Notes under the pieces: generated by a model | What the model was told of the DNA's origin: nothing | What the model saw: the letters and a program-made list of their open reading frames with translations, nothing else | Database searches by the model: none | In this document: positions 10,041 to 21,410 of the stretch, one piece after another | Numbering within the stretch: the first letter of the stretch is position 1 | Layout of the letters: every line of letters begins with the position of its first letter | Program-made: the position numbers and the translations under genes | Assembly (NCBI RefSeq): GCF_055900595.2 | Contig: NZ_CM148325.1 | Length of the DNA stretch: 64,000 nt | Strand: one strand, 5' to 3'

Positions 10041-10529
10041 TCACATCAGATCATTTACGCCGCTTACTGTGGTATTCCAGACCGAACTTAACTTCCCTTT
10101 CATTCCCGAAAGCATATCAGACACCGGCGACGAGGCCATACTCTCCCGCAAATCCTCATCACAGCGTTCCAGACTGACAGTGAACTCAATTTTTTTGGCC
10201 TTACCGTGGCGGTCAAGTTCGCTTCGCGTTGTGCGGACAGCCGTTATCACATACATGCCGTATATCTGCCCCACACCGTCAATCAGCGGCCATGGGCGAC
10301 CAGTGTAAGCCTGCGTCGTTAAAAGGCTGAGGGAAACCTCACCGCCGGTAATTTCGGGATAAAGCACACCGGACAACGTGATCTGGTCGTCACCCGCCCC
10401 GATATACTGCCAGCTGGCCGAACGATTGATGCGTTCATTTTTAACGTGGCGCCAGGTTTTATTATGTTGCAGTTGTTGATGAGGCAGCGTACGCAACTCA
10501 AAAACAAACATGCCGTAAATCATCATCAT
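10041..10529 (-). CDS. Tail protein, P2 gpU-like
   Basis: 162 aa, N-terminus MMMIYGMFVFELRTLPHQQLQHNKTWRH closely resembles P2 gpU (159 aa); on the opposite strand to H/G. Confidence 0.7.
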   Translation of the reverse strand: MMMIYGMFVFELRTLPHQQLQHNKTWRHVKNERINRSASWQYIGAGDDQITLSGVLYPEITGGEVSLSLLTTQAYTGRPWPLIDGVGQIYGMYVITAVRTTRSELDRHGKAKKIEFTVSLERCDEDLRESMASSPVSDMLSGMKGKLSSVWNTTVSGVNDLM

Positions 10530-10540
10530 GCGAGGTACTC

Positions 10541-13500
10541 CTAATCTCTGTCACGGAAACTACCGACTGTCTGGCGGATACGGCGTTCCATTTCCGCACG
10601 GACGGCATCACCCACCATTTTTGCCAGTTCGCGCGGGTTTTGCGTGTGAACATCATGCAGGTGAATATGCAGTTCGCCAGTTAATCCCCATGGTGCCGGC
10701 TCACTCTGGCGCGGTCGGGGCGATGCGGGGGATATGGGCTGGCGCACAGCCTCAACCACCGGACGGGATGTTGCCGCCATCACTGGTGTCATTAGCGGGG
10801 AGAACGTCGGCATGACATCGTGAGTCATAACCGGTTTGATCACCGGCGGAACCACTGGCGTAATATTACCGGACAGTACCGGACGGACGACCGGAGGAAT
10901 AACCGGCACATTATTCACGGACACCACCGGCTTCACGACCGGCGACACGTTCGCCGTGGTGGATATCAGCGGCGAAACACTGACAGGCGGTGGCGCTGGC
11001 AGCGGTGGCAACGAAGGCACACTGACCGACGGCACCTGCGGCAGTCTGACAGGTGGCTCACTGACACTACCCGGTAACAGGGAAGCTGCTCGGTTAAAGC
11101 GTTCCTCCTTCCACTCACCACGAACGGCCAGCGCTTCCGGCAGGTTTTTAAAGATAATATCGCCGGGACCAGCGCGTTTTTTCGCCTGTTTCGCCTCATC
11201 CAGCAGACCACCGGTGTTATCGACGATTTTGTTCAGGCGGCGCATAGTGCCGGTATTCTCCCCCGTCAGGGGTGGTTGCCCCCCTTTGGGTTTTTCGCCG
11301 TCTTTTTTATCCTCGTCCTTTTTCGGCGGATTAATGACGTTAACATCCGCCAGAAGCATGGCAGCTTTCTCGTTCAGCAACTCCTTCTGTTTTAGTTCTT
11401 CCGCCTTTTTCCGGGCGCGCTCAACCGCCGACGGAATCAGCCCGAGTTTTTCCAGCACCCGGGTTAATGAGTCAATCAGCAGCGTAACCGGACCGGTCAC
11501 CAGATTGCTGATAAACTCCCCGACCTTCTGCCCGAACGTACGCCCGGCTTCCGTGCACTTGTCCAGCTCATCCTTTGTTGTGCTTACCGGCGCGAACAAA
11601 TCCACGAACCACTGCCACACACGCCCGATTGTCTGCCCGACATACTCAAACAGCGGTCCCAGTGGTGCCACAGCCTCGCGCAGTGGCGTAAGCCCCTGCC
11701 ACAGGCCGGACAAGAACCCGCCCACGACAGCCTTCAGCTGGTCCCAGTGCCGCCAGATAAGCACTGCCGCACCGACCAGTGTCGCCACCACAAGGCCCAC
11801 CGGACTTAACAGAAAACCCAGCGCCCCGCCAAGTGCGCCCACCGCACCACTCACCATCCCCCACAGTGCGGGCAGACCTGACAGTCTGAGCGCCAGTATT
11901 CCGATACCGCGCCCCAGTGAAATCAGTGCGCCGCCAGGTGAAGTGAACGCAGCCAGCAGACCACCACGCAGCGCGCCAAGTCCCGCCTGCACACCACGAA
12001 GCCGCCCCGCAACTACGCCCAGCAGTGCAGCAAACCGTCCGGCACCGGAGGTGATACCGACAAACAGCACGCGCCAGCCACCGATACCGCCCAGCGGACC
12101 ACCGAGTACGCCGCGCAGCTGCGTCAGTAACGGCAGCGCACGACCGAGGCCGGATGTGCCGGTCAGCAGGGCAAACCCAAGACGCAGTTTTGCCAGCGGC
12201 CCCATCAACACACCAGTGGCAAGTGACAGCGCCCCCATGGCCGCAACCGCAGCCAGCAGTACACCACCGGCAATCAGCAGTTGTTTTGTCAGTTCAGGGT
12301 GCGCCTGAGCCAGCGCGGTGACTTTCGCAATAACCCGGGTGAACGACTGCGTGACAGAACGCAGCGGCCCGTCAACGAGGTCAGCGACACGGATACGCAG
12401 TCCTTCCCATGCGCTGTTCAGTGATTTCAGGTCACCGTCCAGGTTATCAGCCATAACACGGGCAGTGTGATTAAGTTCCCCGGTGGCCAGTTCAATCTCC
12501 TGCGTAAGACGGGGAAGATTATTTTCCCCCGCCGCAGTGACAAGATTCATCAGGGAAACATAGGACTCCTGCCCGGCAATAGCCCTGAAAAAGGAGACCT
12601 GCGCGGCATTACCGTATTTTCGGGTGGCCTGGTACAGCTCATTCAGGATATTTTCCATCCGGCGCATGTTCCCGTAAGCATCCTGCGTCTCCACGCCAAG
12701 CTCTTTCAGTGCCATTGCAGCGGCCTTCGGCGGATCAACCAGACGTGACAGACTGGCACGCAGCGCCGTACCTGCATCACTTCCACGGATCCCCACACTG
12801 CCAAGGACACCCGTCATGGCTGCCGCCTGTTCAAGGGACAGGCCAAGTGAAGCTGCAACCGGACCCGTGTACTTCATGGTTTCACCCAGCGAACGGAGAT
12901 CCGTATTGGTTCGTGTGAAGGTGGCGGCCAGCGTGTCACCCACGCGATCCATCTGGTCAGCGGACAGACCAAACTGTGTGAGGATATTCGAACTGATATC
13001 GGCAGTCTGTCCCAGGTCCATCCCTGCAGCCATTGCCAGATCAAGCACGCCGGGTAGCGCCGCCTGTATGGCCTGTGGTGTGAAGCCGGCCATGGCAAGG
13101 AACGCCTGACCGCTGGCAGCATCACCGGCGGTAAACTGCGTTTCAGAGCCCAGCTTAATGGCCTGTTCGCGCAGCGCCTTAAACTGCGGACTGTTTTTGT
13201 CAATACGGGTCAGCGCCTGGACGCGCGACATCTCCTTACCAAAACTGACCGCCGGTTGCAGGAAACGTCCGGCCGCATAGCCGCCTGCCGCCGCCGTACC
13301 AACCGCCGTAAGTCCGACCGTTTTAAGTTTTCCCGCCGTCTCCTGAGCACGGGAATATTGCTGGCGTGCCTGCGTGACACGTGCCAGCGCCTGCCGTTCG
13401 CGTTCCAGCTGGTCGTTGTATTGCTGTGTTCGCCGTATGGCCTGTTGAATGGTGTTGTCACTGCCGGAAAGCGCAATACCGTGGCGCCGCAGCTCACCAC

Positions 13501-13888
13501 CCAGTTCGCGCATTCGCTGAACTTCACGCGCACGGACCTCATTGAGACGCTCAAGTTTGAGGCTCAAATCGTTCATCAGCTTTTTCTGTTTGTCAGACAG
13601 CACGGTTCCGGCGCGCTGAATTTGCTGAAGTGCGCTTAACTGGCGTTGCGCCCTGACAATGCCGTTTCCGGCCTTGTTTGCAGCCTCGCGGGCGCGATCA
13701 AATGAACGGGCGTGGCGTTCCAGGTTTTTGATCGCACCCTGCGTTCTCTGTATGGAGTCGCCAAGCTGGCCCATCATGCGACGGGCGTTTTCGGTGGGAC
13801 GGGTCAGCCTGTCAACAGCGCTGAAGGCGACCCGTATATCAAGCGTTTTCATGCTCTGCGTTCCCGCTGCGAAGGGCCGCCCGCTCAC
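10541..13888 (-). CDS. Tail tape measure protein, P2 gpT-like
   Basis: 1115-aa ORF; coiled-coil N-terminal region, Gly/Ala-rich hydrophobic centre, Pro/Val-rich C-terminal part; track start is GTG at 13888, an in-frame ATG also lies at 13852. Confidence 0.8.
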   Translation of the reverse strand: MSGRPFAAGTQSMKTLDIRVAFSAVDRLTRPTENARRMMGQLGDSIQRTQGAIKNLERHARSFDRAREAANKAGNGIVRAQRQLSALQQIQRAGTVLSDKQKKLMNDLSLKLERLNEVRAREVQRMRELGGELRRHGIALSGSDNTIQQAIRRTQQYNDQLERERQALARVTQARQQYSRAQETAGKLKTVGLTAVGTAAAGGYAAGRFLQPAVSFGKEMSRVQALTRIDKNSPQFKALREQAIKLGSETQFTAGDAASGQAFLAMAGFTPQAIQAALPGVLDLAMAAGMDLGQTADISSNILTQFGLSADQMDRVGDTLAATFTRTNTDLRSLGETMKYTGPVAASLGLSLEQAAAMTGVLGSVGIRGSDAGTALRASLSRLVDPPKAAAMALKELGVETQDAYGNMRRMENILNELYQATRKYGNAAQVSFFRAIAGQESYVSLMNLVTAAGENNLPRLTQEIELATGELNHTARVMADNLDGDLKSLNSAWEGLRIRVADLVDGPLRSVTQSFTRVIAKVTALAQAHPELTKQLLIAGGVLLAAVAAMGALSLATGVLMGPLAKLRLGFALLTGTSGLGRALPLLTQLRGVLGGPLGGIGGWRVLFVGITSGAGRFAALLGVVAGRLRGVQAGLGALRGGLLAAFTSPGGALISLGRGIGILALRLSGLPALWGMVSGAVGALGGALGFLLSPVGLVVATLVGAAVLIWRHWDQLKAVVGGFLSGLWQGLTPLREAVAPLGPLFEYVGQTIGRVWQWFVDLFAPVSTTKDELDKCTEAGRTFGQKVGEFISNLVTGPVTLLIDSLTRVLEKLGLIPSAVERARKKAEELKQKELLNEKAAMLLADVNVINPPKKDEDKKDGEKPKGGQPPLTGENTGTMRRLNKIVDNTGGLLDEAKQAKKRAGPGDIIFKNLPEALAVRGEWKEERFNRAASLLPGSVSEPPVRLPQVPSVSVPSLPPLPAPPPVSVSPLISTTANVSPVVKPVVSVNNVPVIPPVVRPVLSGNITPVVPPVIKPVMTHDVMPTFSPLMTPVMAATSRPVVEAVRQPISPASPRPRQSEPAPWGLTGELHIHLHDVHTQNPRELAKMVGDAVRAEMERRIRQTVGSFRDRD

Positions 13889-14365
13889 GCCAGGCGACCA
13901 CCTCGCCGGGATCCATCAGGAAGATTTCAGCGGGAGACCAGTTGAAAATAACGGCGATATCCGCCACAAAGTCTTCAATGTGCTCAAAGGGCACGACGGT
14001 TATCAGCCTGCCGTCGCCGCCCCACTCTTCCCGCCAGAGTCCTGACCGGCCAAAAAATTAACCGCCACCCCGCACAGCTGAATAAAATCAGCGGACCCCA
14101 TGCGCTTAAGCAGAACCTCGTCCAGTCGCGGCGAAGTGACGCGCGGGAGTAACTCAAACATCGCGTCCGTTTTCATGTTCAGCACGTCAAGCAGTGACAG
14201 CCCGCGCAGTGAACCGGCCTGCTGTACAGCAGGCGTGATTTCCACATACGTGATTTTTTTGTTACCGAGCACAAGGGGCGTTTTCAGCGTCACGCCGCGC
14301 TCACTGGTCACGTCCGCCGCATCAGCACCGTCAGTAACAGGGGCAACAACCGGATTTTCTTTCAT
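13839..14365 (-). CDS. Putative E+E' fusion made by programmed -1 ribosomal frameshift
   Basis: TTTTTTG on the coding strand at 14051-14057; the -1 frame stays open for about 70 codons and stops at TGA 13839-13841, just inside the tape measure 5' end. Confidence 0.45.
14003..14365 (-). CDS. Tail assembly chaperone, P2 gpE-like (zero-frame product)
   Basis: 120-aa ORF between the tube gene and tape measure gene; contains the slippery heptamer near its 3' end. Confidence 0.6.
   Translation of the reverse strand: MKENPVVAPVTDGADAADVTSERGVTLKTPLVLGNKKITYVEITPAVQQAGSLRGLSLLDVLNMKTDAMFELLPRVTSPRLDEVLLKRMGSADFIQLCGVAVNFLAGQDSGGKSGAATAG
14051..14057 (-). other. Slippery heptamer T_TTT_TTG (candidate -1 frameshift site)
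   Basis: Plus strand reads caaaaaa at 14051-14057; reverse complement is TTTTTTG in the E reading frame (AVNFLAGQ). Confidence 0.45.
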
Positions 14366-14415
14366 GCATAAAACCTCAAATCAGGGGGCGACGCCGCGCG
14401 CCGCCGTGGGAAACA

Positions 14416-14934
14416 TTAACCACCAAGACCAATCGCCGAGCGCACGCGGTCCGGGAAGACGTTTTTGCCGTCCTTGCGTTCGATGTGGTTCAGTAAATCA
14501 ATCTCCAGCACCGGACGGTCGTTAATGCTGAGTTTGTAGTAGGTACTCCTGACCGCATAGGTGTGAGACGTGACCTCACCCTGTTTTGCCTCCCCCGTAT
14601 CAATTTCCGTCACGCGGCCGCGAAGCTCAATTTCATACAGGTCGCTCTGCTCTTCATCGTTGTAGTACTCACCGACAAAGCGCAGCAGCGTACCGTCGAT
14701 CGTGCCGCCGTACTTAAGGAACAGTTCGCGGGTCGGCCCGCCCATGGTGAAACTCGCATCCAGCGCGCCGTCATCCAGACCAAGGTCGATATTCACCGCG
14801 CCGGCCATACCACCACCGCGATAGGCTTCCGTTTTACGGGTCAGTTTGGGGGGGGTGAAGCCGGTCACCCTGCCAATCTGGTTCACCCCGTCAGTAAACA
14901 GCGTGAACACCCTGAGATTTTTTGGTACGGCCAT
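14416..14934 (-). CDS. Tail tube protein, P2 gpFII-like
   Basis: 172 aa, same length as P2 FII; directly downstream of the sheath gene. Confidence 0.75.
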   Translation of the reverse strand: MAVPKNLRVFTLFTDGVNQIGRVTGFTPPKLTRKTEAYRGGGMAGAVNIDLGLDDGALDASFTMGGPTRELFLKYGGTIDGTLLRFVGEYYNDEEQSDLYEIELRGRVTEIDTGEAKQGEVTSHTYAVRSTYYKLSINDRPVLEIDLLNHIERKDGKNVFPDRVRSAIGLGG

Positions 14935-16124
14935 TAAGCACCTCCAAGCGTCGCAAATGCAGGACCAAAGAATTCATCAGTAAACGTCTGGTAAAGTTCC
15001 ATATCCTCAAGCGGCGGAACGGGCGTGTACTTGTAGCGGATACGCACGCGTCCCTGACGAAGTTCCGTGGTGCTGTTATCCACCACGTCATACCAGCACT
15101 CCGCACCAATGAGACGTCCTGACGTAACCAGCGCATCCAGTTTTGCGCGAATTGCGCTTAACACGTCTTTCACATTAGCAGGGGTCAGCGGGGCATCAAT
15201 CGTTTCAAACTGCGCTTCCGCAATGGAATCAGCCAGCACCTGAGCGGTTCGCGTGTACACCTCAAAGAGATACGCCTTCGTTTCCGGCGTACGGTTGCCC
15301 CAGAAGCGGAAACCGTTACGGCAAATGATGGTAGTGATTTCCTTGTTGTTGAGATTGTTGGCATCGCTGTCTTCGGACTGAAGGGACCAGAACACCGGGC
15401 TGGAAATACCCAGCACATTTCTTACCGGCACGTTGGACAGCGATTTATGCCAGCCCTGTTCGTGGTCAATACGTGCACGTAAACCGCAGGCGTACGCCGC
15501 AGCCGGGAAGACCTCATTAGCGCCGGATTTCGGGTTATGGGCGATGAAGTCCGGCCAGACCAGCATAAGTTCGCGCTCGTTAAATCTGGCGCGGTAGCTG
15601 ATTGCATCGGCGGGCTTCTTGCAGTTGTGACAGCCCGCGTAGACAAATGCGCGAAGTTTTTCTGCAATTACACACAGGGATTTTGTGACAGCTTCAGTAT
15701 CCAGTCCGGGAGCTGCGATGATGCGCGGACGGTAACCGATGGCATCATCCTGTTCAGCTATCAGAAGTGCATACATGCCGGTATAGTTTCCGTCATCATC
15801 AGAACCACCGATAACGAGTTTGTCCTGGGTTTGTCCTGAATGCGTCTCTTCCTTAAATTCAGGAACGCGCACCACAATCACCTTCGTGCTCACCTGGTCG
15901 GCGACAGCCTTAAGCGATTTGTAAAGCGTCCCCTTTGTGCCGGCCTTACCCAGCACATCACTGACGCGGGTCAGCAGTGTGGGTTTGTTCAGCGGGAACA
16001 GAGTTTCATCCGCGTCATCTGCCGTAGCCACAATACCAATAACACTGGAATCCACATCATTAATGGCGGTGGCAAGGCCGGTACTTTCCCTTACGCGCGC
16101 ACCATGAAAGCGTGTTTCACTCAT
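14934..16124 (-). CDS. Contractile tail sheath protein, P2 gpFI-like
   Basis: Internal ATG at 16124 (MSETRFHGARV...) gives 396 aa, same length as P2 FI; conserved motifs such as RNGFRFWGNRT. Confidence 0.8.
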   Translation of the reverse strand: MSETRFHGARVRESTGLATAINDVDSSVIGIVATADDADETLFPLNKPTLLTRVSDVLGKAGTKGTLYKSLKAVADQVSTKVIVVRVPEFKEETHSGQTQDKLVIGGSDDDGNYTGMYALLIAEQDDAIGYRPRIIAAPGLDTEAVTKSLCVIAEKLRAFVYAGCHNCKKPADAISYRARFNERELMLVWPDFIAHNPKSGANEVFPAAAYACGLRARIDHEQGWHKSLSNVPVRNVLGISSPVFWSLQSEDSDANNLNNKEITTIICRNGFRFWGNRTPETKAYLFEVYTRTAQVLADSIAEAQFETIDAPLTPANVKDVLSAIRAKLDALVTSGRLIGAECWYDVVDNSTTELRQGRVRIRYKYTPVPPLEDMELYQTFTDEFFGPAFATLGGA

Positions 16125-16200
16125 ATGTTTCACCCTTGTCTGGCTGGTTGATTTTGCGTAATCATTACCCACACACGCGGTAATCTCACCCCTTTGATGT

Positions 16201-16218
16201 TGTCTCCTGACAGCGACA
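16201..16218. promoter_or_regulatory. TGT-N12-ACA dyad, candidate Ogr/Delta-type late activator site between divergent FI and D
   Basis: tgtctcctgacagcgaca lies inside a longer palindrome (ttgttgtc...gacaacaa); about 77 bp from the FI start and about 68 bp from the D start. Confidence 0.4.
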
Positions 16219-16285
16219 ACAAAACAGCCATTCAACGCCGCTGCGGTGCATGAAACCATTACAGAACGCACCAGGAGAGAACACC

Positions 16286-17377
16286 ATGAAAGAGCTGTCA
16301 GTTACCGTTCCGTCACCGGATATCGACATCACCATCAACAACAACACACTGGCAAACCTCACAGAGCGACTCATGACGCTGACCCTGACGGATAACCGGG
16401 CCTTTGAGGCAGACCGCGTCACCCTCACCCTTGACGATACGGACGGGCAGTTACAGTTGCCACCACGTGGCGCACGCCTGAGAGTGATGATTGGCTGGCG
16501 AGGAGAATCACTGGTTAACAAGGGCACCTACGTCGTTGATGAGGTTGCGTGGGAAGGACCTCCAGATAAACTGATCATCACCGCCAGCAGCGCAGATTTT
16601 CGGGAAGAGTTCAACGTGAGGCGGGAGGTATCCTGGCACGACGTGACCGTAAAACAGGTTGTGTCAGCCATCGCTCACCGCTACGGCCTGAAGACACAGA
16701 TAAGCGAAATCCTCATGGATATCGAAATTGACCACGCTGACCAGACCGAAGAGAGCGATATATCCTTCCTGACCCGCATGGCTGAAATGCTGGGTGCGAT
16801 TGCCACCGTAAAAAACGGCAGCCTGTTATTCATTCTGCCGGGTGGCGGAACCGGGCCGGACGGAAGAGCCCTGCCTTCGTTCGCCATTACCCGCAGCAGC
16901 GGCGACAGTCACCGCTTTCGCATTGCTGACCGTGATGCGTATACGGGGGTCCGGGCGCACTGGCTCGATCTGAAGTTCGGGCAAAAGAAAAAAGTGAACG
17001 TGAAGCGACGCAGGGAAGCCGGGAAACAGAAACAGGAGAAGAGCAGCAGCCGGGAGGGTGATTACATGGAAGGCGCGGAAGGGAACGTCTACGTTCTGCG
17101 CAGGACTTACCAGAATGAAGAAACCGCACGACGTGCAGCTGCGGCAAAGTGGCAGGAGTTACAGCGGGGAGCAGCGGCATTCTCCATCACTCTGGCACGG
17201 GGTCGTGCCGACCTGTATCCCGAAATGCACGGCAGGGTAACAGGTTTTAAAAGCGAGGTGGACAATCAGGACTGGATTATTGCCAGGGTGGAGCACATCA
17301 TAGATGAAAGCGGCTTCACCACACAACTGGAGCTGGAAGCGAAAATCCCCGAATGGATAGCAGATTCAGGCGGATAA
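16286..17377 (+). CDS. Tail protein D (late control gene D family), P2 gpD-like
   Basis: ATG at 16286 preceded by aggagag; 363 aa with gpD-type motifs (LTLTDNR.FEAD, FSITLARGRADLYPE). Confidence 0.7.
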   Translation: MKELSVTVPSPDIDITINNNTLANLTERLMTLTLTDNRAFEADRVTLTLDDTDGQLQLPPRGARLRVMIGWRGESLVNKGTYVVDEVAWEGPPDKLIITASSADFREEFNVRREVSWHDVTVKQVVSAIAHRYGLKTQISEILMDIEIDHADQTEESDISFLTRMAEMLGAIATVKNGSLLFILPGGGTGPDGRALPSFAITRSSGDSHRFRIADRDAYTGVRAHWLDLKFGQKKKVNVKRRREAGKQKQEKSSSREGDYMEGAEGNVYVLRRTYQNEETARRAAAAKWQELQRGAAAFSITLARGRADLYPEMHGRVTGFKSEVDNQDWIIARVEHIIDESGFTTQLELEAKIPEWIADSGG

Positions 17378-17420: not shown

Positions 17421-17672
17421 ATGTTCCGTTGTCCCCTATGCGGTGCATCCGCACGTATCCGCACCAGTCGCAATGAAAATGATTCAGGCACAGTTCGCCT
17501 GAAGTACTACCAGTGCAATAACCTCGAATGCGGGATCGGCTTTACCACACTGGAGGGTTTTAACAAATTCACATCAAAACGCGCCCCGTCGCCGCAGGGT
17601 ACAGAGCGGATACCGTGGGAAGATTTTCCGGGATCTCACAGGGGGAATACTCAGATTAATCTTGATATTTAA
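17421..17672 (+). CDS. ogr: Ogr/Delta-family zinc-finger late transcription activator
   Basis: 83 aa; N-terminus MFRCPLCGASARIRTSR...YYQCNNLEC carries the four-Cys Ogr signature; last gene of the P2-type late region. Confidence 0.7.
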   Translation: MFRCPLCGASARIRTSRNENDSGTVRLKYYQCNNLECGIGFTTLEGFNKFTSKRAPSPQGTERIPWEDFPGSHRGNTQINLDI

Positions 17673-17790
17673 GAACAATAATCAGGTTGAGAGGACATCA
17701 TAAGGCAAGTAGATTAACGGCAGATACTTTCCCGCAACCACGGGCAAGTATTTAATTATCCATGATGAAATATGACCTAAATTGTTTTTT

Positions 17791-17816
17791 GCCCGCCGGA
17801 AAGCGGGCATTTTTTT
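17791..17816 (+). terminator. Intrinsic terminator (GC hairpin plus T7), first of a recurring family in the array
   Basis: gcccgccggaaagcgggc then attttttt; T-run only on the plus-strand side. Confidence 0.55.
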
Positions 17817-18030
17817 ATTCTTTTGTGGTTATGGGGTCATCAGGAACCACGTGCAGATTATATTTTTGTTTTTTTGGCGTTCCTCCGGCAGCAACGAGTT
17901 CATCAATAAGACACTGACACGCCTGAACATCCCGGGCATGTCTTAGTTTCACCTTTATTGATTTAACCTTATCCTCACCGGAGGAGAAATGCAGTTCAAT
18001 CTCAATATCGTTTCTTCGGAACAATCTCAT
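17815..18030 (-). CDS. Hypothetical small protein (71 aa) encoded in the 450-bp repeat unit; only this copy is full length
   Basis: MRLFRRNDIEIELHFSSGEDKVKS...; copy at about 19.2 kb differs by two synonymous and one non-synonymous change in the first 7 codons and is truncated to about 35 codons; third copy degenerate. Confidence 0.35.
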   Translation of the reverse strand: MRLFRRNDIEIELHFSSGEDKVKSIKVKLRHARDVQACQCLIDELVAAGGTPKKQKYNLHVVPDDPITTKE

Positions 18031-18254
18031 ACGCCCCCTGAATATATCAGAAATACTAGTATCGAAAAATGAGAAAACAGTTAGACAGGAGAAACATATT
18101 AACACAAATCATTTATACCTATAGATGAAATTATAATTTCATTCATGAATATGATAGATAACTATATTGTGAACAAAATGAAAAATGGCTAAATTAAAAA
18201 TGGGCATGGAGGAATGCCCGGTTATCAATATAATGTGACGTAGATCATTGTTTT

Positions 18255-18281
18255 GCCCGCCGGAGAGCGGGCATTTTTTTT
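18255..18281 (+). terminator. Intrinsic terminator (repeat family)
   Basis: gcccgccggagagcgggc followed by a T8 run. Confidence 0.5.
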
Positions 18282-18465
18282 GCGCCTGCCATCGAGGCGC
18301 CTTCCCTGGCGCACACAAAGCAGCCCTGATTTTCCATGAAAACTTCAGGGTTGAGCTGCGGGCACAAAGTGAGTAGATTAGCTACGGGTACCTCCCCCTG
18401 ACAACAGGAAGGGTGTCCATTATCCATGATATACAAACGAAAAGTCTTGTTTTTTGCCCGCCGAA

Positions 18466-18491
18466 GCGCGGGCATTTTTTTATGCATCAGA
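18466..18491 (+). terminator. Intrinsic terminator (repeat family), immediately upstream of the hok-like locus
   Basis: gcccgccgaagcgcgggc followed by a T7 run. Confidence 0.5.
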
Positions 18492-18607
18492 CAAGATACA
18501 GCCCACCCCAACTGACACCTGAAATATTGCCGCAACAAAAAGAAACAGTTAAATTACGCGCGGGTGCCTTTCGGCTGATGGCCGGAGGGAAAACCTGAAG
18601 GCCGGAT

Positions 18608-18841
18608 GTGGAAAGGCCCCGGAAAACATTTCTGTTTAACCGAGGCCCTAACCGCATTACCTTGACAAGTGAAAGGTTAGCGCCTCTCCGGAAAAGGAGC
18701 AAGTGCTATGTCGCAAAAATCGCTTACGGCCATCACGTTCTGCGTGACGGCAATCCTCATCATCTGGATATTGCACGGTTCGCTGTGCGAAATACGGATG
18801 AGCTTCTGGGGAGCGGAGTTTGCGGCGTTCTTACAATGTAA
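18608..18841 (+). CDS. mok-like overlapping reading frame of the hok-like locus
   Basis: 77-codon frame starting at GTG 100 nt upstream of the hok-like ATG and covering it in another frame, as in hok/mok/sok modules. Confidence 0.4.
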   Translation: MERPRKTFLFNRGPNRITLTSERLAPLRKRSKCYVAKIAYGHHVLRDGNPHHLDIARFAVRNTDELLGSGVCGVLTM

Positions 18842-18848
18842 GAAGTAA
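18708..18848 (+). CDS. Hok-family type I toxin (46 aa), apparently intact
   Basis: ATG at 18708 preceded by aaggag with 8-nt spacing; MSQKSLTAITFCVTAILIIWILHGSLCEIRMSFWGAEFAAFLQCKK has a single TM helix, the Hok SLCEIR motif and the E(F/V)AAF motif; too short for the ORF track. Confidence 0.6.
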   Translation: MSQKSLTAITFCVTAILIIWILHGSLCEIRMSFWGAEFAAFLQCKK

Positions 18849-18947
18849 GGAAACCGCGACGGGGGAGCAATCCCCCGTCAATCGGTTGCCAGGGTAAGGT
18901 CGATAAGGCACCCTATCTCACAGACATGAACAACAAACCCGCAGCAT

Positions 18948-18979
18948 AAAAACTGCGGGTTTTCTTTTTGGTGTCCTCA
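18948..18979 (+). terminator. Intrinsic terminator downstream of the hok-like gene
   Basis: cccgcag cataaaaa ctgcggg followed by tttctttttgg. Confidence 0.5.
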
Positions 18980-20612
18980 CCGACTTGAAACAGTGATCAG
19001 ACTATAAGACAAAGCCCGCAATGTTGCGGGCTTACTCTACCTCTCGAAAATGTGGTCACTGCGTGGACATACGCTGATACAAATCCTTTATATCAATAAA
19101 TTAAATCTTTGTTTTTTTCATCAACAATGATTTAACCTTATCCTCACCGGAGGAGAAATGCAGTTCAATCTCAATATCGTTTCTGTGGAACAGCCTCATA
19201 AGACAACCTCCTGAATTCATCAGAAACACAGTCAACTGAAAACCAGAAAGCAGACAAACAGTGGACACACATTAATACAAATCATTTATACCTATAGATG
19301 AAATTGCAGTTTCATCTATAACATGACAGGTAACAATATTGTGAAAAAACTCAAAACTCGTTAGATTAAAGACGGACAGAGCAATGCTACTTTATCAATA
19401 ACATGTAACCTGTACTTCCTTATTTTGCCCGCCGAAGCACGGGCATTTTTTTTGCGCCTGCCATCGAGGCGCCTTCCCTGGCGCACACAAAGCAGCCCTG
19501 ATTTTCCATGAAAACTTCAGGGTTGAGCCAAAAGCACAAAGACAGTAGATTAACCACGGGTGCCTTCCACCTGACAACAGGAAGGGTGTCCAGTATCAAT
19601 GACAGACAACTCACATTGCTGTTTTGCCCGCCGGAAAGCGGGCATTTTTTTATTCTTTTGTGGTTATTGGGTCATCAGGAACAACATGCAGATTATGCTT
19701 TGATTTTTTTGGTGTTATTACAGCAGCAACGAGTTTATTAATAAGACACTGACATGCCTGAACATCCCTGACATATCATAATTTCACTTTATTTTTTTAG
19801 CTTGTCCTTTCTGGAGCAGAAATATCTCAACATCGTTTCTGTGGAACAACCTCATTTGCCCCTGAATGTATCATAAATATCAGCATCGGAAAACCAACAG
19901 CAATACAGAAGAAACATGTTAATGCAAATCACTTATACCTATAGATGAAATTACAGTTTTGTTCATAAATATGATAAGTAACTATATTGTGAATAAAATG
20001 AAAACTAGCTAAATTAAACGTGGGCATGGTGGAATGCCTCGTAATCAATAATACATGATCCGTACTTCCTTGTTTTGCCCGCCGGAAAGCGGGCATTTTT
20101 TTGGCGGTTACCATCGCCTCACCTTCCTGGTTCACATGAAGCAACCCTGATTTTCCATGAAAACTTCAGGGTTGAGACAAAAGCACAAAGACAGTAGATT
20201 AACCACGGGTACCTTCCACCTGACAACAGGAAGGCTGTCCAGTATCAATGACAGACAACTCACATTGCTGTTTTGCCCGCCGGAAAGCGGGCTTTTTTTG
20301 GCAGTTATCATAGCCGCACCTTCCTGGCACATATGAAGCAACCCTGATTTTCCATGAAAACTTCAGGGTTGAGACAAAAGCACAAAAACAGTAGATTAAC
20401 CACGGGTGCCTGCCACCTGACAACAGGAAGGGGTGTCCATTATCCATGATATACAAACGAAAAGTCTTGTCTTTTGCCCGCCAAAGCGCGGGCATTTTTT
20501 TATGCATCAGACAAGATACAGCCCACCCCAACTAACACCTGAAATATTGCCGCAACAAAAAGAAACGGGTGCCTTTCGGCTGATGGCCGGAGGGAAAACC
20601 TGAAGACCGGAT

Positions 20613-20795
20613 GTGGAAAGGCCCCGGAAAACATCTGTGTTTAACCGAGGCCTGACCCTTCCTACCGTGACAAGTGGAAGGTTAGCGCCTCTTTGTAAAA
20701 GGAGCAAGCGCTATACCGCAAAAAACGATTATTGTTGGCATTTTATGCCTGACAATAACCCTGGTCATCTGGATGGTCCACGATTCGTTATGTGA
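20613..20795 (+). CDS. mok-like frame of the second (decayed) hok-like locus
   Basis: 60-codon frame from GTG, homologous to 18608..18841. Confidence 0.3.
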   Translation: MERPRKTSVFNRGLTLPTVTSGRLAPLCKRSKRYTAKNDYCWHFMPDNNPGHLDGPRFVM

Positions 20796-20853
20796 ATTCA
20801 GCTTTGATATCTGAGGAGCGCGTTTTGCGGCGTTCTTGCAGTGTAAACCGTAA
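20713..20853 (+). pseudogene. Decayed hok-like toxin gene (start codon lost, in-frame nonsense codon)
   Basis: Alignment to copy 1 by eye: ATG is ATA at 20713-20715 and TGG is TGA at 20812-20814; remaining frame IPQKTIIVGILCLTITLVIWMVHDSLCEFSFDI* still shows the Hok core. Confidence 0.5.
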
Positions 20854-21003
20854 GAAACCGCAGCGGGGGAGAAATTCCCCGCTATCCGGTTGTTGGGGTG
20901 GGCCGATATGGCGCCCTTTCCCTGTAGAGACAAAACAAAAAACCAGATTTGCCCGCCATTGAGAGGGCTTTTTTGTCACCCTCACCAGTGAGGGCATCAT
21001 CAT

Positions 21004-21231
21004 TCAGAGGCGCGTAAGCCACCCGGCGTTAACATCCTGCCTGTCAACCCTGGCCGCAGAGTCTGAACGGCAGGTACCGGAAGGAGTACCAAAAACATCC
21101 CTGACAAGTTCCGCCACCTTCCCGATATCATCAGGTGTCACATTCCTCACCTCGGCCGTGATCCGTGGCGTACCATCATCGTTAACAAGAGTGGCTTTAA
21201 AGCTGGTGCGAAGGGAAAACAACATCAACAT
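21004..21231 (-). CDS. Hypothetical small protein (75 aa) between the repeat array and serS
   Basis: ORF only; not recognised; absent from my recollection of the K-12 serS-dmsA spacer. Confidence 0.25.
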   Translation of the reverse strand: MLMLFSLRTSFKATLVNDDGTPRITAEVRNVTPDDIGKVAELVRDVFGTPSGTCRSDSAARVDRQDVNAGWLTRL

Positions 21232-21386: not shown

Positions 21387-21410
21387 AAAAGCGCCCGCAG
21401 GCGCTTTTTA
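21387..21410 (-). terminator. serS terminator (bidirectional-looking hairpin)
   Basis: aaaagcgcc cgca ggcgctttt immediately 3' of the serS stop. Confidence 0.55.

What the first reader, a model, noticed from the sequence alone, without database searches (positions are those of the whole stretch)
20500..20900. Second hok-like copy is decayed by start-codon loss and a nonsense mutation
The locus about 2 kb downstream is co-linear with the intact copy (same leader, same mok-like frame from GTG 20613), but the hok-like start is ATA instead of ATG (20713-20715) and a TGG codon is TGA (20812-20814). The remaining frame still encodes a recognisable Hok core (..VIWMVHDSLCEF..). An intact and a decayed copy side by side suggests duplication followed by inactivation of one toxin, as described for chromosomal hok loci in laboratory strains.
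Basis: seen in the sequence. Interest (0 to 1): 0.5.

Follow-up and report, generated by a model that had tools for sequence, protein, structure and literature searches.

The report
Dead hok toxin cassette in prophage
The second hok-like copy is a real, multiply broken relic of a hok/sok toxin-antitoxin cassette.

Summary
Copy 2 has ATA at 20713-20715 where relatives have ATG, and TGA at 20812-20814 where they have TGG. It is co-linear with the intact hok at 18708-18848.

Both states are derived. They recur in many independent assemblies, so they are not sequencing errors.

A later G-to-A change also hits the putative mok ribosome-binding site (20606).

The lesions differ in age. The deletion plus ATA are in every carrier examined, and the ATA-start protein is on record in over 1000 contigs. 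TGA34 marks a sub-lineage (176 index blocks). Other sub-lineages carry an independent TTA11-to-TGA, or an IS421 in the 3' hairpin.

The loci are not core chromosomal hok genes. Both lie inside a P88-like, P2-family prophage, between ogr and the att site in the serS terminator.

They are not a simple duplicate pair. The toxins are 52% identical and the antisense target regions differ. Copy 2 is the positional counterpart of the single intact hok in related prophages. A gene-conversion allele also exists.

The antisense sok2 gene looks intact by sequence. This is a known kind of decay and of low interest.

The parts
17421..17672 (+). ogr/Delta zinc-finger late activator; last core gene of the P2-family prophage before the cargo region
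   Evidence: ORF; annotated ogr/Delta-like in identical genomes
18527..18555 (+). hok1 promoter: -35 TTGCCG (18527-18532), 17-nt spacer, -10 TAAATT (18550-18555); +1 inferred at G18562
   Evidence: The hexamers are conserved and the 17-nt spacer varies in sequence but not in length in hok1, L007, L012, P88 and Stx phage 75/02. Homology between these contexts starts at the -35. The Rfam sok model starts at 18562. Inferred, not mapped experimentally.
18562..18915 (+). intact hok1 mRNA unit: mok-like frame GTG 18608..18841, hok1 CDS 18708..18848, 3' hairpin, fbi about 18898-18913
   Evidence: The MFE fold pairs nt 1-15 with nt 337-352. The protein is WP_000078913.1 Hok/Gef in the eight annotated complete-genome records fetched that carry hok1. 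Pfam HOK_GEF E=1e-6.
18602..18702 (-). sok1 antisense gene: -35 TTGCTC (complement of 18697-18702), -10 TAACCT (complement of 18674-18679), RNA from about 18667 leftwards through the hairpin
   Evidence: The hexamers are conserved in six loci. Predicted hairpin -27.6 kcal/mol. Geometry matches the R1 sok promoter as I recall it. Not mapped experimentally.
20547..20566 (+). remnant of the hok2 promoter: the -35 TTGCCG (20547-20552) is kept; a 15-bp deletion (CAGTTAAATTACGCG, between about 20565 and 20566) removes the -10 box and discriminator
   Evidence: Alignments. The deletion is in every ATA allele examined and is absent from the intact allele L007.
20567..20917 (+). hok2 mRNA-equivalent body (relic): tac 5' end, mok-like frame GTG 20613..20795, 3' hairpin 20860-20885, fbi about 20901-20916
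   Evidence: The fold pairs nt 1-7 and 10-15 with nt 335-350. dG is -145.6, against -164.0 for the intact allele.
20606..20606 (+). G-to-A change in the putative mok ribosome-binding site (GAAGG to GAAGA, 6 nt before GTG 20613)
   Evidence: All other loci have G. The A is shared only with L028 among the loci read. Reverting it stabilises the fold by 4.7 kcal/mol.
20607..20707 (-). sok2 antisense gene, apparently intact: -35 TTGCTC (complement of 20702-20707), -10 TAACCT (complement of 20679-20684), RNA from about 20672 leftwards
   Evidence: The promoter is identical to that of sok1 and L007. Hairpin -27.4 kcal/mol. The 61-nt segment 20622-20682 is 100% identical in all 26 carrier genomes and absent from the other 5400.
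20713..20853 (+). hok2 reading-frame remnant: ATA in place of ATG (20713-20715), TGG34 changed to TGA (20812-20814), original stop TAA (20851-20853)
20369..20501 (+). sRNA-like 'S' unit directly upstream of hok2 (promoter-like TTGAGA-17-TAGATT, then a terminator at 20475-20501); its strong terminator shields hok2 from upstream read-through
21387..21407 (.). prophage att core, which is the serS terminator; host (K-12-like) sequence resumes here

Best explanation
[quoted passage not shown] It lies in the 3.7-kb cargo region between ogr and att of a P88-like (P2-family, Peduoviridae) prophage integrated at the serS terminator of E. coli.

It is the positional counterpart of the single, intact hok that related prophages carry next to att.

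It was silenced in steps. First, in the ancestor of all carriers, came a 15-bp deletion of the hok -10 box and the change ATGTCG to ATACCG. The order of these two is unknown. Then came TGG34 to TGA, in a sub-lineage now found at the serS and ihfB sites. Then came G20606A in the putative mok ribosome-binding site, and then G20534A.

As a result, the window's copy should have no hok2 promoter, weakened mok translation, about 1% or less initiation at hok, and a peptide cut before the second cysteine. It makes no toxin.

The antisense sok2 gene is unbroken by sequence and may still be transcribed, but no cognate live hok was found for it.

The neighbouring hok1/sok1 cassette is a different allele and looks intact. 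The pair arose by recombination among related phage cargo modules, with later gene conversion between the copies, rather than by simple duplication of one hok.

Shown: the sequence states, their distribution and the prophage context. Inferred: promoter identity, loss of transcription and translation, sok2 expression, and the order of events.
For: Sequence states.

Derived status: all five outgroup loci have the -10 box, ATG and TGG.

Promoter footprint: TTGCC(G/C), 17 nt, TA(A/G)ATT, with a spacer that varies in sequence but not in length, across unrelated upstream contexts.

Family membership: Pfam, PHROG, NCBIfam and Rfam hits; 5'-3' tac/fbi pairing in the folds; mok overlap.

Experimental analogues in R1 hok (FASTBAC-Seq, PMC9841398): loss of toxicity at single copy for a -10 mutation (T-12C), for start-codon positions 2 and 3, for 18 of 20 possible premature stops, for mok SD mutations and for the 3' hairpin.

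AUA initiates at about 0.02-3% of AUG (bioRxiv 10.1101/063800).

The Cys29-Cys46 disulfide is needed for HokB toxicity (cited in bioRxiv 10.1101/2025.08.07.668861). TGA34 removes Cys44.

Prophage context.

Allele series and frequencies: the ATA-start 46-aa product is in more than 1000 contigs (1668 index blocks), the TGA34 33-aa product in 176 blocks, and the TGA11-type product in 23 contigs.

Mosaicism. Gene-conversion allele (L031, ATG restored, deletion kept).
Against: There are no expression data. The hok promoter and the Sok ends are inferred from conservation and from R1 geometry, not mapped. The tool's generic sigma-70 scan lists neither the hok1 nor the hok2 promoter, because the match is 8 of 12 and falls below its cut-off.

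Most carriers keep the 46-codon frame open behind a strong Shine-Dalgarno sequence, and GenBank pipelines annotate it as Hok/Gef using ATA as the start. Residual function of the older ATA allele is therefore not formally excluded. This does not apply to the window's TGA34 allele.

The order of the deletion and the ATA change cannot be resolved, because no allele with only one of them was found.
Confidence: 0.88

Rival explanations
1. Simple local tandem duplication of one hok/sok locus, followed by decay of the redundant copy.
For: The copies are 2005 bp apart and co-linear. The leader is 98% identical and the upstream unit 91%. A survey reports that hok islets usually arise by local duplication (bioRxiv 10.1101/2025.08.07.668861). 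Other modules in the same region are also repeated, each with one intact and two decayed copies.
Against: The CDS is 67% identical at nucleotide level and 52% at amino-acid level, so the two would fall in different 60% clusters. The survey found that in only 2% of islets. Each copy has a closer relative elsewhere: copy 2 to L007 at 93-97%, copy 1 to P88-type phages at 90-95%. Prophages exist with only the dead copy. The hok1 segment ends inside a truncated ORF. The high leader identity is explained by gene conversion, which is seen directly in L031.
Confidence: 0.12
2. The ATA allele is an attenuated but live toxin gene with low-level initiation at AUA, and the nonsense alleles are recent knock-outs selected because of residual toxicity.
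For: There is a strong AAGGAG Shine-Dalgarno sequence 8 nt upstream. AUA initiates at up to about 3% of AUG. The frame is open in most carriers. There are at least two independent nonsense mutations and one IS insertion within a lineage that is 99.8-99.9% identical, while hok1 is unchanged in the carriers read, apart from a different allele in L025.
Against: The -10 box is deleted in every ATA allele. R1 hok with a start codon mutated at the third position is non-lethal at single copy. With about 2 differences per kb across the prophage, an open 141-nt frame is expected by default, and three changes in 420 nt are not significant. For the window's own copy, TGA34 and the mok SD change make this moot.
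Confidence: 0.05
3. The two G-to-A lesions are corrected at the RNA level by TadA A-to-I editing (AUA read as AUG, UGA read as UGG), as known for hokB.
For: Both lesions are exactly the kind that inosine would mask. TadA edits hokB and other hok mRNAs (PMC5630033 listed; summary).
Against: The TadA sites described need the A in a UACG context. Here the contexts are UACC (20714-20717) and UGAG (20812-20815). The promoter deletion would still prevent transcription.
Confidence: 0.01
4. The ATA and/or TGA are sequencing or assembly errors in this window.
For: A20534 is so far private to the window.
Against: The states are identical in dozens of independent assemblies.
Confidence: 0.01

Closest known systems
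hok/sok of plasmid R1 (type I toxin-antitoxin; Pfam PF01848, Rfam RF01794)
   Same: Small Hok/Gef membrane peptide, overlapping mok frame, antisense Sok gene with its promoter over the hok SD region, and 5'-3' tac/fbi fold-back. All are recognisable in both copies.
   Different: It is carried by a prophage, not a plasmid. The Rfam and NCBIfam scores are below their curated cut-offs. Copy 2 lacks the promoter -10 box, the start codon and an open frame.
hokW-sokW of Stx prophages (Sp5/933W) and the hok of P88-type Peduoviridae (phrog_251 'MokW-like host killing')
   Same: Same PHROG family (E=8.5e-22 and 2.1e-17). The locus is 78-95% identical at DNA level. It is phage cargo. hokW-sokW has been shown to be a working type I TA that aids lysis on induction (PMC8621323).
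   Different: Copy 2's Sok target segment is unique to its lineage, and the gene is dead. No function has been tested for hok1 here.
Inactive chromosomal hok loci of E. coli K-12 (hokA-E; Pedersen and Gerdes 1999)
   Same: These are hok loci that keep recognisable RNA elements but no longer kill (summary). Strain GF4 has an IS element next to the frame, the K-12 mode of inactivation as I recall it.
   Different: Here the lesions are a promoter micro-deletion, a start-codon change and a nonsense codon. The locus is prophage cargo that still moves between att sites (serS, zapB, ihfB).
Intact allele P0002 (46 aa, E. coli prophages next to copA; L007-L012)
   Same: Same slot (last gene before att). 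91% identical at amino-acid level; CDS and 3' UTR 93-97% identical at nucleotide level; the SD and sok-promoter segment is identical.
   Different: It has the -10 box, ATG and TGG. Its Sok hairpin and target segment is only 53% identical.

Membership tests
[quoted passage not shown] | Hok/Gef-type small hydrophobic peptide (Pfam PF01848) with the conserved Cys-Thr in the TM segment and the L-C-E motif | tested here: met
   Copy 1 E=9.8e-7. Repaired copy 2 E=1e-4. phrog_251 E=2e-17. C12, T14 and L26-C27-E28 are present (conserved residues listed).
[quoted passage not shown] | Overlapping upstream mok-like reading frame | tested here: met
   GTG 18608..18841 and GTG 20613..20795, in the same relative frame. 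In the window's copy 2 the putative SD is mutated.
[quoted passage not shown] | Long-range 5'-3' pairing (tac/fbi) of the full-length mRNA | tested here: met
   The MFE folds pair nt 1-15 with nt 335-352 in hok1, hok2 and L007. Two of the three 3'-side differences keep the pairing. This is a prediction only.
[quoted passage not shown] | Antisense Sok RNA gene with its own promoter and a terminal hairpin | tested here: inconclusive
   TTGCTC-17-TAACCT and a hairpin are conserved in six loci. The Rfam sok hit is below the gathering score (46.2 and 42.8 against 59 bits). There are no transcript data.
[quoted passage not shown] | hok promoter present | tested here: not met
   Copy 2 lacks the conserved -10 box and discriminator through a 15-bp deletion. 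Copy 1 has them.
[quoted passage not shown] | Open hok frame with a canonical start codon | tested here: not met
   Copy 2 has ATA and TGA34, and no alternative start. Copy 1 meets this feature.
[quoted passage not shown] | Toxicity, and neutralisation by the cognate Sok | not testable with these tools
   Needs cloning and expression.
TadA A-to-I edited hok mRNAs | The edited A lies in a UACG motif | tested here: not met
   The contexts are UACC and UGAG (motif as stated).
P2-family (Peduoviridae) prophage cargo | The locus lies between the att sites of a prophage with P2-type capsid, terminase, tail, ogr, cox and int genes | tested here: met
   Annotation of the identical prophage in ECCNB12-2, with the att core duplicated at both ends.

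The most novel reading that the evidence does not exclude
The dead hok2 cassette is retained because its still-intact sok2 gene is useful or because it is a sequence reservoir. The sok2 promoter and hairpin are unbroken, and the 61-nt segment is invariant in all 26 complete carrier genomes. Sok2 could work as an orphan antisense RNA, for example as anti-addiction immunity against an incoming element with the cognate hok, or as a modulator of hok1. Alternatively, the relic could be a donor or acceptor for gene conversion with hok1, which could create new toxin and antitoxin specificities. L031 shows such an exchange.
Probability: 0.08. Interest if true: 0.45.

Novelty: new member of a known kind. 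Interest (0 to 1): 0.2.

Why it matters
This matters mainly for annotation and for surveys of toxin-antitoxin systems. In draft GenBank assemblies the relic is widely annotated as a 'Hok/Gef family protein', using ATA as the start codon, in more than 1000 contigs. In the RefSeq complete genomes it is left unannotated. Counts of 'hok genes' in E. coli and in prophages therefore include or miss a dead locus depending on the pipeline.

It also gives a clean natural allele series for how a type I toxin gene is dismantled while its antisense partner stays unbroken: promoter deletion plus start loss, then independent nonsense mutations, an IS insertion and a conversion. It does not change what is known about how hok/sok works.

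Tried and rejected
(1) An exact-pattern scan of IMG/VR for copy 2's SD and start region, with either ATA or ATG, found nothing.

(2) No relative at 90% identity or more was found in the phage or plasmid collections. The best are hokW-type loci at about 78-82%.

(3) I tested whether the window's three differences from its closest relatives point to selection or a mutational hot spot, since all three are G-to-A changes inside hok2. The rest of the prophage differs at about 2 per kb, so three changes in 420 nt are not significant. I dropped this.

(4) Serial integration, leaving stacked prophage ends, was tested as the source of the two copies. There is no extra att-core copy inside the cargo region. 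It is not supported in that simple form.

(5) Rescue by A-to-I editing was rejected because the motif is not met.

(6) I looked for a live cognate target for Sok2. The 61-nt sok2 segment occurs only in the 26 carrier genomes among 5426, so no target was found.

(7) Rfam at E<=1 gave nothing for the repeated sRNA-like units. A full-text search for their terminator string found no paper.

(8) The hokW paper gave no mapped hok promoter to transfer.

Full report
OBSERVATION

The intact gene runs from ATG 18708 to TAA 18848 and encodes 46 aa. The second locus, in the same register, begins ATA at 20713-20715, has TGA at 20812-20814, and ends at the original TAA at 20851-20853.

The mok-like frames start at GTG 18608 and GTG 20613. 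The two loci align over about 700 nt.

Copy 1 and a repaired copy 2 both hit Pfam HOK_GEF, phrog_251 'MokW-like host killing' and, below the cut-off, NCBIfam HokA. Rfam's sok model hits both leaders at E about 1e-7 but below its gathering score.

No alternative start can rescue copy 2. An in-frame TAG lies at 20683-20685, and no ATG, GTG or TTG lies between it and the ATA.

WHERE IT IS

The window is E. coli, with serS, rarA, lolA and ftsK to the right. In genomes that are 99.9% identical across this region, a complete P2-family prophage lies between serS and dmsA. It has a P2-type capsid, terminase and tail, plus ogr, cox and int.

K-12 has serS directly followed by dmsA. Its sequence matches the window only from 21387 rightwards. 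A core of about 21 bp that overlaps the serS terminator is duplicated at the two prophage ends.

Both hok copies therefore sit inside the prophage, in a 3.7-kb cargo region between ogr (17421-17672) and att (21387-21407). They are not core chromosomal hok loci.

Copy 1's locus is 90-95% identical to the hok of P88-type Peduoviridae, and about 82% identical to the hokW loci of Stx phages.

WHICH STATE IS ANCESTRAL, AND HOW OLD ARE THE LESIONS

Five homologous loci all read ATGTCG at the start and TGG at codon 34. They are hok1, the copA-site prophages L007 and L012, phage P88 and Stx phage 75/02. Both of copy 2's states are therefore derived.

Twenty-six of 5426 complete E. coli genomes carry copy 2. 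All 26 lack an annotated gene there. Every copy I read has ATA.

Among the complete genomes, only strain GF4 shares the window's TGA34. Sixteen have ATA with TGG. Nine records have an independent TTA11-to-TGA; these are one chicken clone sequenced repeatedly, plus isolate F374.

The protein collection gives the wider picture. The 46-aa product, called with ATA as the start, is on record in more than 1000 contigs (1668 index blocks). The 33-aa TGA34 product is in 176 blocks. A 34-aa product typical of the TGA11 allele is in 23 contigs. Singleton missense variants also exist: V22L, I15K, G35E and A36E.

TGA34 alleles occur in prophages at serS and also next to ihfB, with or without hok1. The lesion therefore predates several lysogenisation events. 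None of this is sequencing error.

Copy 2 lacks 15 bp (CAGTTAAATTACGCG) just upstream of the mRNA 5' end. Across five loci whose upstream flanks are otherwise unrelated, homology begins exactly at TTGCC(G/C). It continues through a 17-nt spacer that varies in sequence but not in length, then TA(A/G)ATT, a 6-nt discriminator and GGG(T/C)GCC.

That is the footprint of a sigma-70 promoter with +1 at 18562, where the Rfam model also starts. The deletion removes the -10 box and the discriminator. It is present in every ATA allele and absent from the intact allele.

The window and L028 also carry G20606A, which turns the conserved GAAGG located 6 nt before the mok GTG into GAAGA. The window alone has G20534A.

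In GF4, an IS421 sits in the 3' hairpin, with a 13-bp target duplication at window-equivalent 20867-20879.

WHY EACH LESION SHOULD KILL THE TOXIN

Saturation mutagenesis of R1 hok at single copy found loss of toxicity for five classes of change. These are a -10 mutation, start-codon changes at positions 2 and 3, 18 of the 20 codons that can mutate to stop, mok SD mutations, and changes in the last 3' hairpin (PMC9841398).

AUA initiates at roughly 0.02-3% of AUG (bioRxiv 10.1101/063800).

TGA34 removes Cys44. The corresponding disulfide is required for HokB toxicity (summary in bioRxiv 10.1101/2025.08.07.668861).

These are analogies from relatives, not tests on this locus.

WHAT IS STILL INTACT

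Folding predicts the hallmark 5'-3' pairing (tac/fbi) in hok1, hok2 and the intact allele. Hok2 is about 18 kcal/mol less stable than the intact allele. Reverting the three point changes together recovers 8.9 kcal/mol.

On the opposite strand, the Sok promoter (TTGCTC-17-TAACCT) and hairpin are the same as in copy 1 and in the intact allele. The 61-nt sok2 segment is 100% identical in all 26 carriers.

That segment occurs nowhere else in 5426 genomes, so no live cognate hok is known for it. The predicted cross-duplexes with the hok1 leader are much weaker than the cognate ones.

DUPLICATION OR NOT

Identity between the two copies is 98% in the leader, 80% in the Sok hairpin and target segment, 67% in the CDS (52% at amino-acid level) and 75% in the 3' UTR.

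Against the single intact hok of the copA-site prophages, copy 2 is 93% identical in the CDS, 97% in the 3' UTR and 100% in the SD segment, but only 53% in the Sok segment.

Related prophages show a series of cargo layouts:
- ogr directly followed by hok (L012).
- ogr, one set of small modules, then hok (L007).
- Two sets of modules and only the dead hok (SCU-115 at zapB; L029 at ihfB).
- The window's layout, where a hok1 segment ending inside a truncated small ORF at about 19128 lies between repeated modules.

One draft genome (L031) has a copy 2 whose Sok target and first six codons have been converted to the hok1 sequence. This restores ATG while keeping the promoter deletion. L025 has a different hok1 allele next to the same dead hok2.

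Together this points to cassette shuffling and gene conversion among related phages, not to duplication of one gene. A survey found that 98% of hok islets hold peptides of one 60% identity cluster, and that only 3.5% of hok-bearing phages have two copies. This pair is therefore of the uncommon, heterogeneous type.

Whether the presence of hok1 allowed hok2 to decay cannot be decided, because phages with only the dead copy exist.

VERDICT

It is wrong on context (prophage cargo), incomplete on lesions (promoter deletion, mok SD), and too simple on origin.

This is a well-understood kind of decay in a well-known family. Its practical value lies in annotation and in the natural allele series.

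Noticed in passing
window 17680-20501 (units at 17722-17816, 18386-18481, 19558-19651, 20207-20299, 20404-20501; further terminators at 18254, 19426, 20076): There are eight plus-strand copies of a strong terminator (TGCCCGCC-N6-GCGGGCA-T7). Five are preceded by TTGAG(A/C)-17-TAGATT promoter-like sites, giving predicted sRNA-like transcripts of about 95 nt: a 5' hairpin, a single-stranded UUAUCCAUGAU or AGUAUCAAUGAC stretch, then the terminator. The first unit has a different hairpin sequence with the same shape. No Rfam match at E<=1. The unit is found in only 30 of 5426 complete E. coli genomes, 2-8 copies each, and is unannotated. Function unknown.
   Followed up: partly
window 17815-18030 (-), 19101-19268 (-), about 19650-19870 (-): A small ORF (71 aa, WP_001236182.1) matches phrog_14142 (unknown function), but only the C-terminal half of that 128-position profile. 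It has two decayed copies in the same cargo region. One is truncated after about 25 codons at a recombination junction near 19128. The other is frameshifted by small deletions. As with hok, there is one intact copy and decayed repeats.
   Followed up: partly
L014 (E. coli GF4, NZ_CP172217.1), window-equivalent 20867-20879: An IS421 (IS4 family) is inserted in the 3' hairpin of the dead hok2, between the stop codon and the fbi element, with a 13-bp target duplication. It recalls the IS elements next to the K-12 hok loci.
   Followed up: yes
L031 (GCA_020594835.1, serS site), gene at 1391-1531: This hok2 allele (WP_227316754.1, MSQKSLIVGIL...) has its Sok target region and first six codons converted to hok1 sequence. 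The conversion restores ATG, but the 15-bp promoter deletion remains. It is direct evidence of gene conversion between the two copies.
   Followed up: partly
L016/L026 (SCU-115, zapB-glpF site); L029, L030 (ihfB-rpsA site): The same prophage lineage, carrying the dead hok2, is integrated at three or more chromosomal sites (serS, zapB, ihfB). Some copies carry no intact hok at all. The phage therefore seems to have been mobile recently without needing a live hok2.
   Followed up: partly
GenBank and RefSeq annotation of window-equivalent 20713-20853: In draft and GenBank records the relic is annotated as 'Hok/Gef family protein' using ATA, or internal CTG, ATT or ATG codons, as the start (46-, 37-, 34-, 33- and 26-aa products). 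It is left unannotated, not even as a pseudogene, in the RefSeq complete genomes.
   Followed up: yes
window 10041-17377: The tail block (sheath 14934-16271, tube 14416-14934, tape measure 10541-13888, gpU-like 10041-10529) is on the minus strand. gpD (16250-17377) and ogr are on the plus strand. From my memory of the P2 map, this block is inverted relative to the classical P2 gene order.
   Followed up: no
window 21004-21231 (-): A conserved small ORF of 73-75 aa lies between the dead hok2 and att. It is also present after the intact hok in L007-L012. No function was looked up.
   Followed up: no
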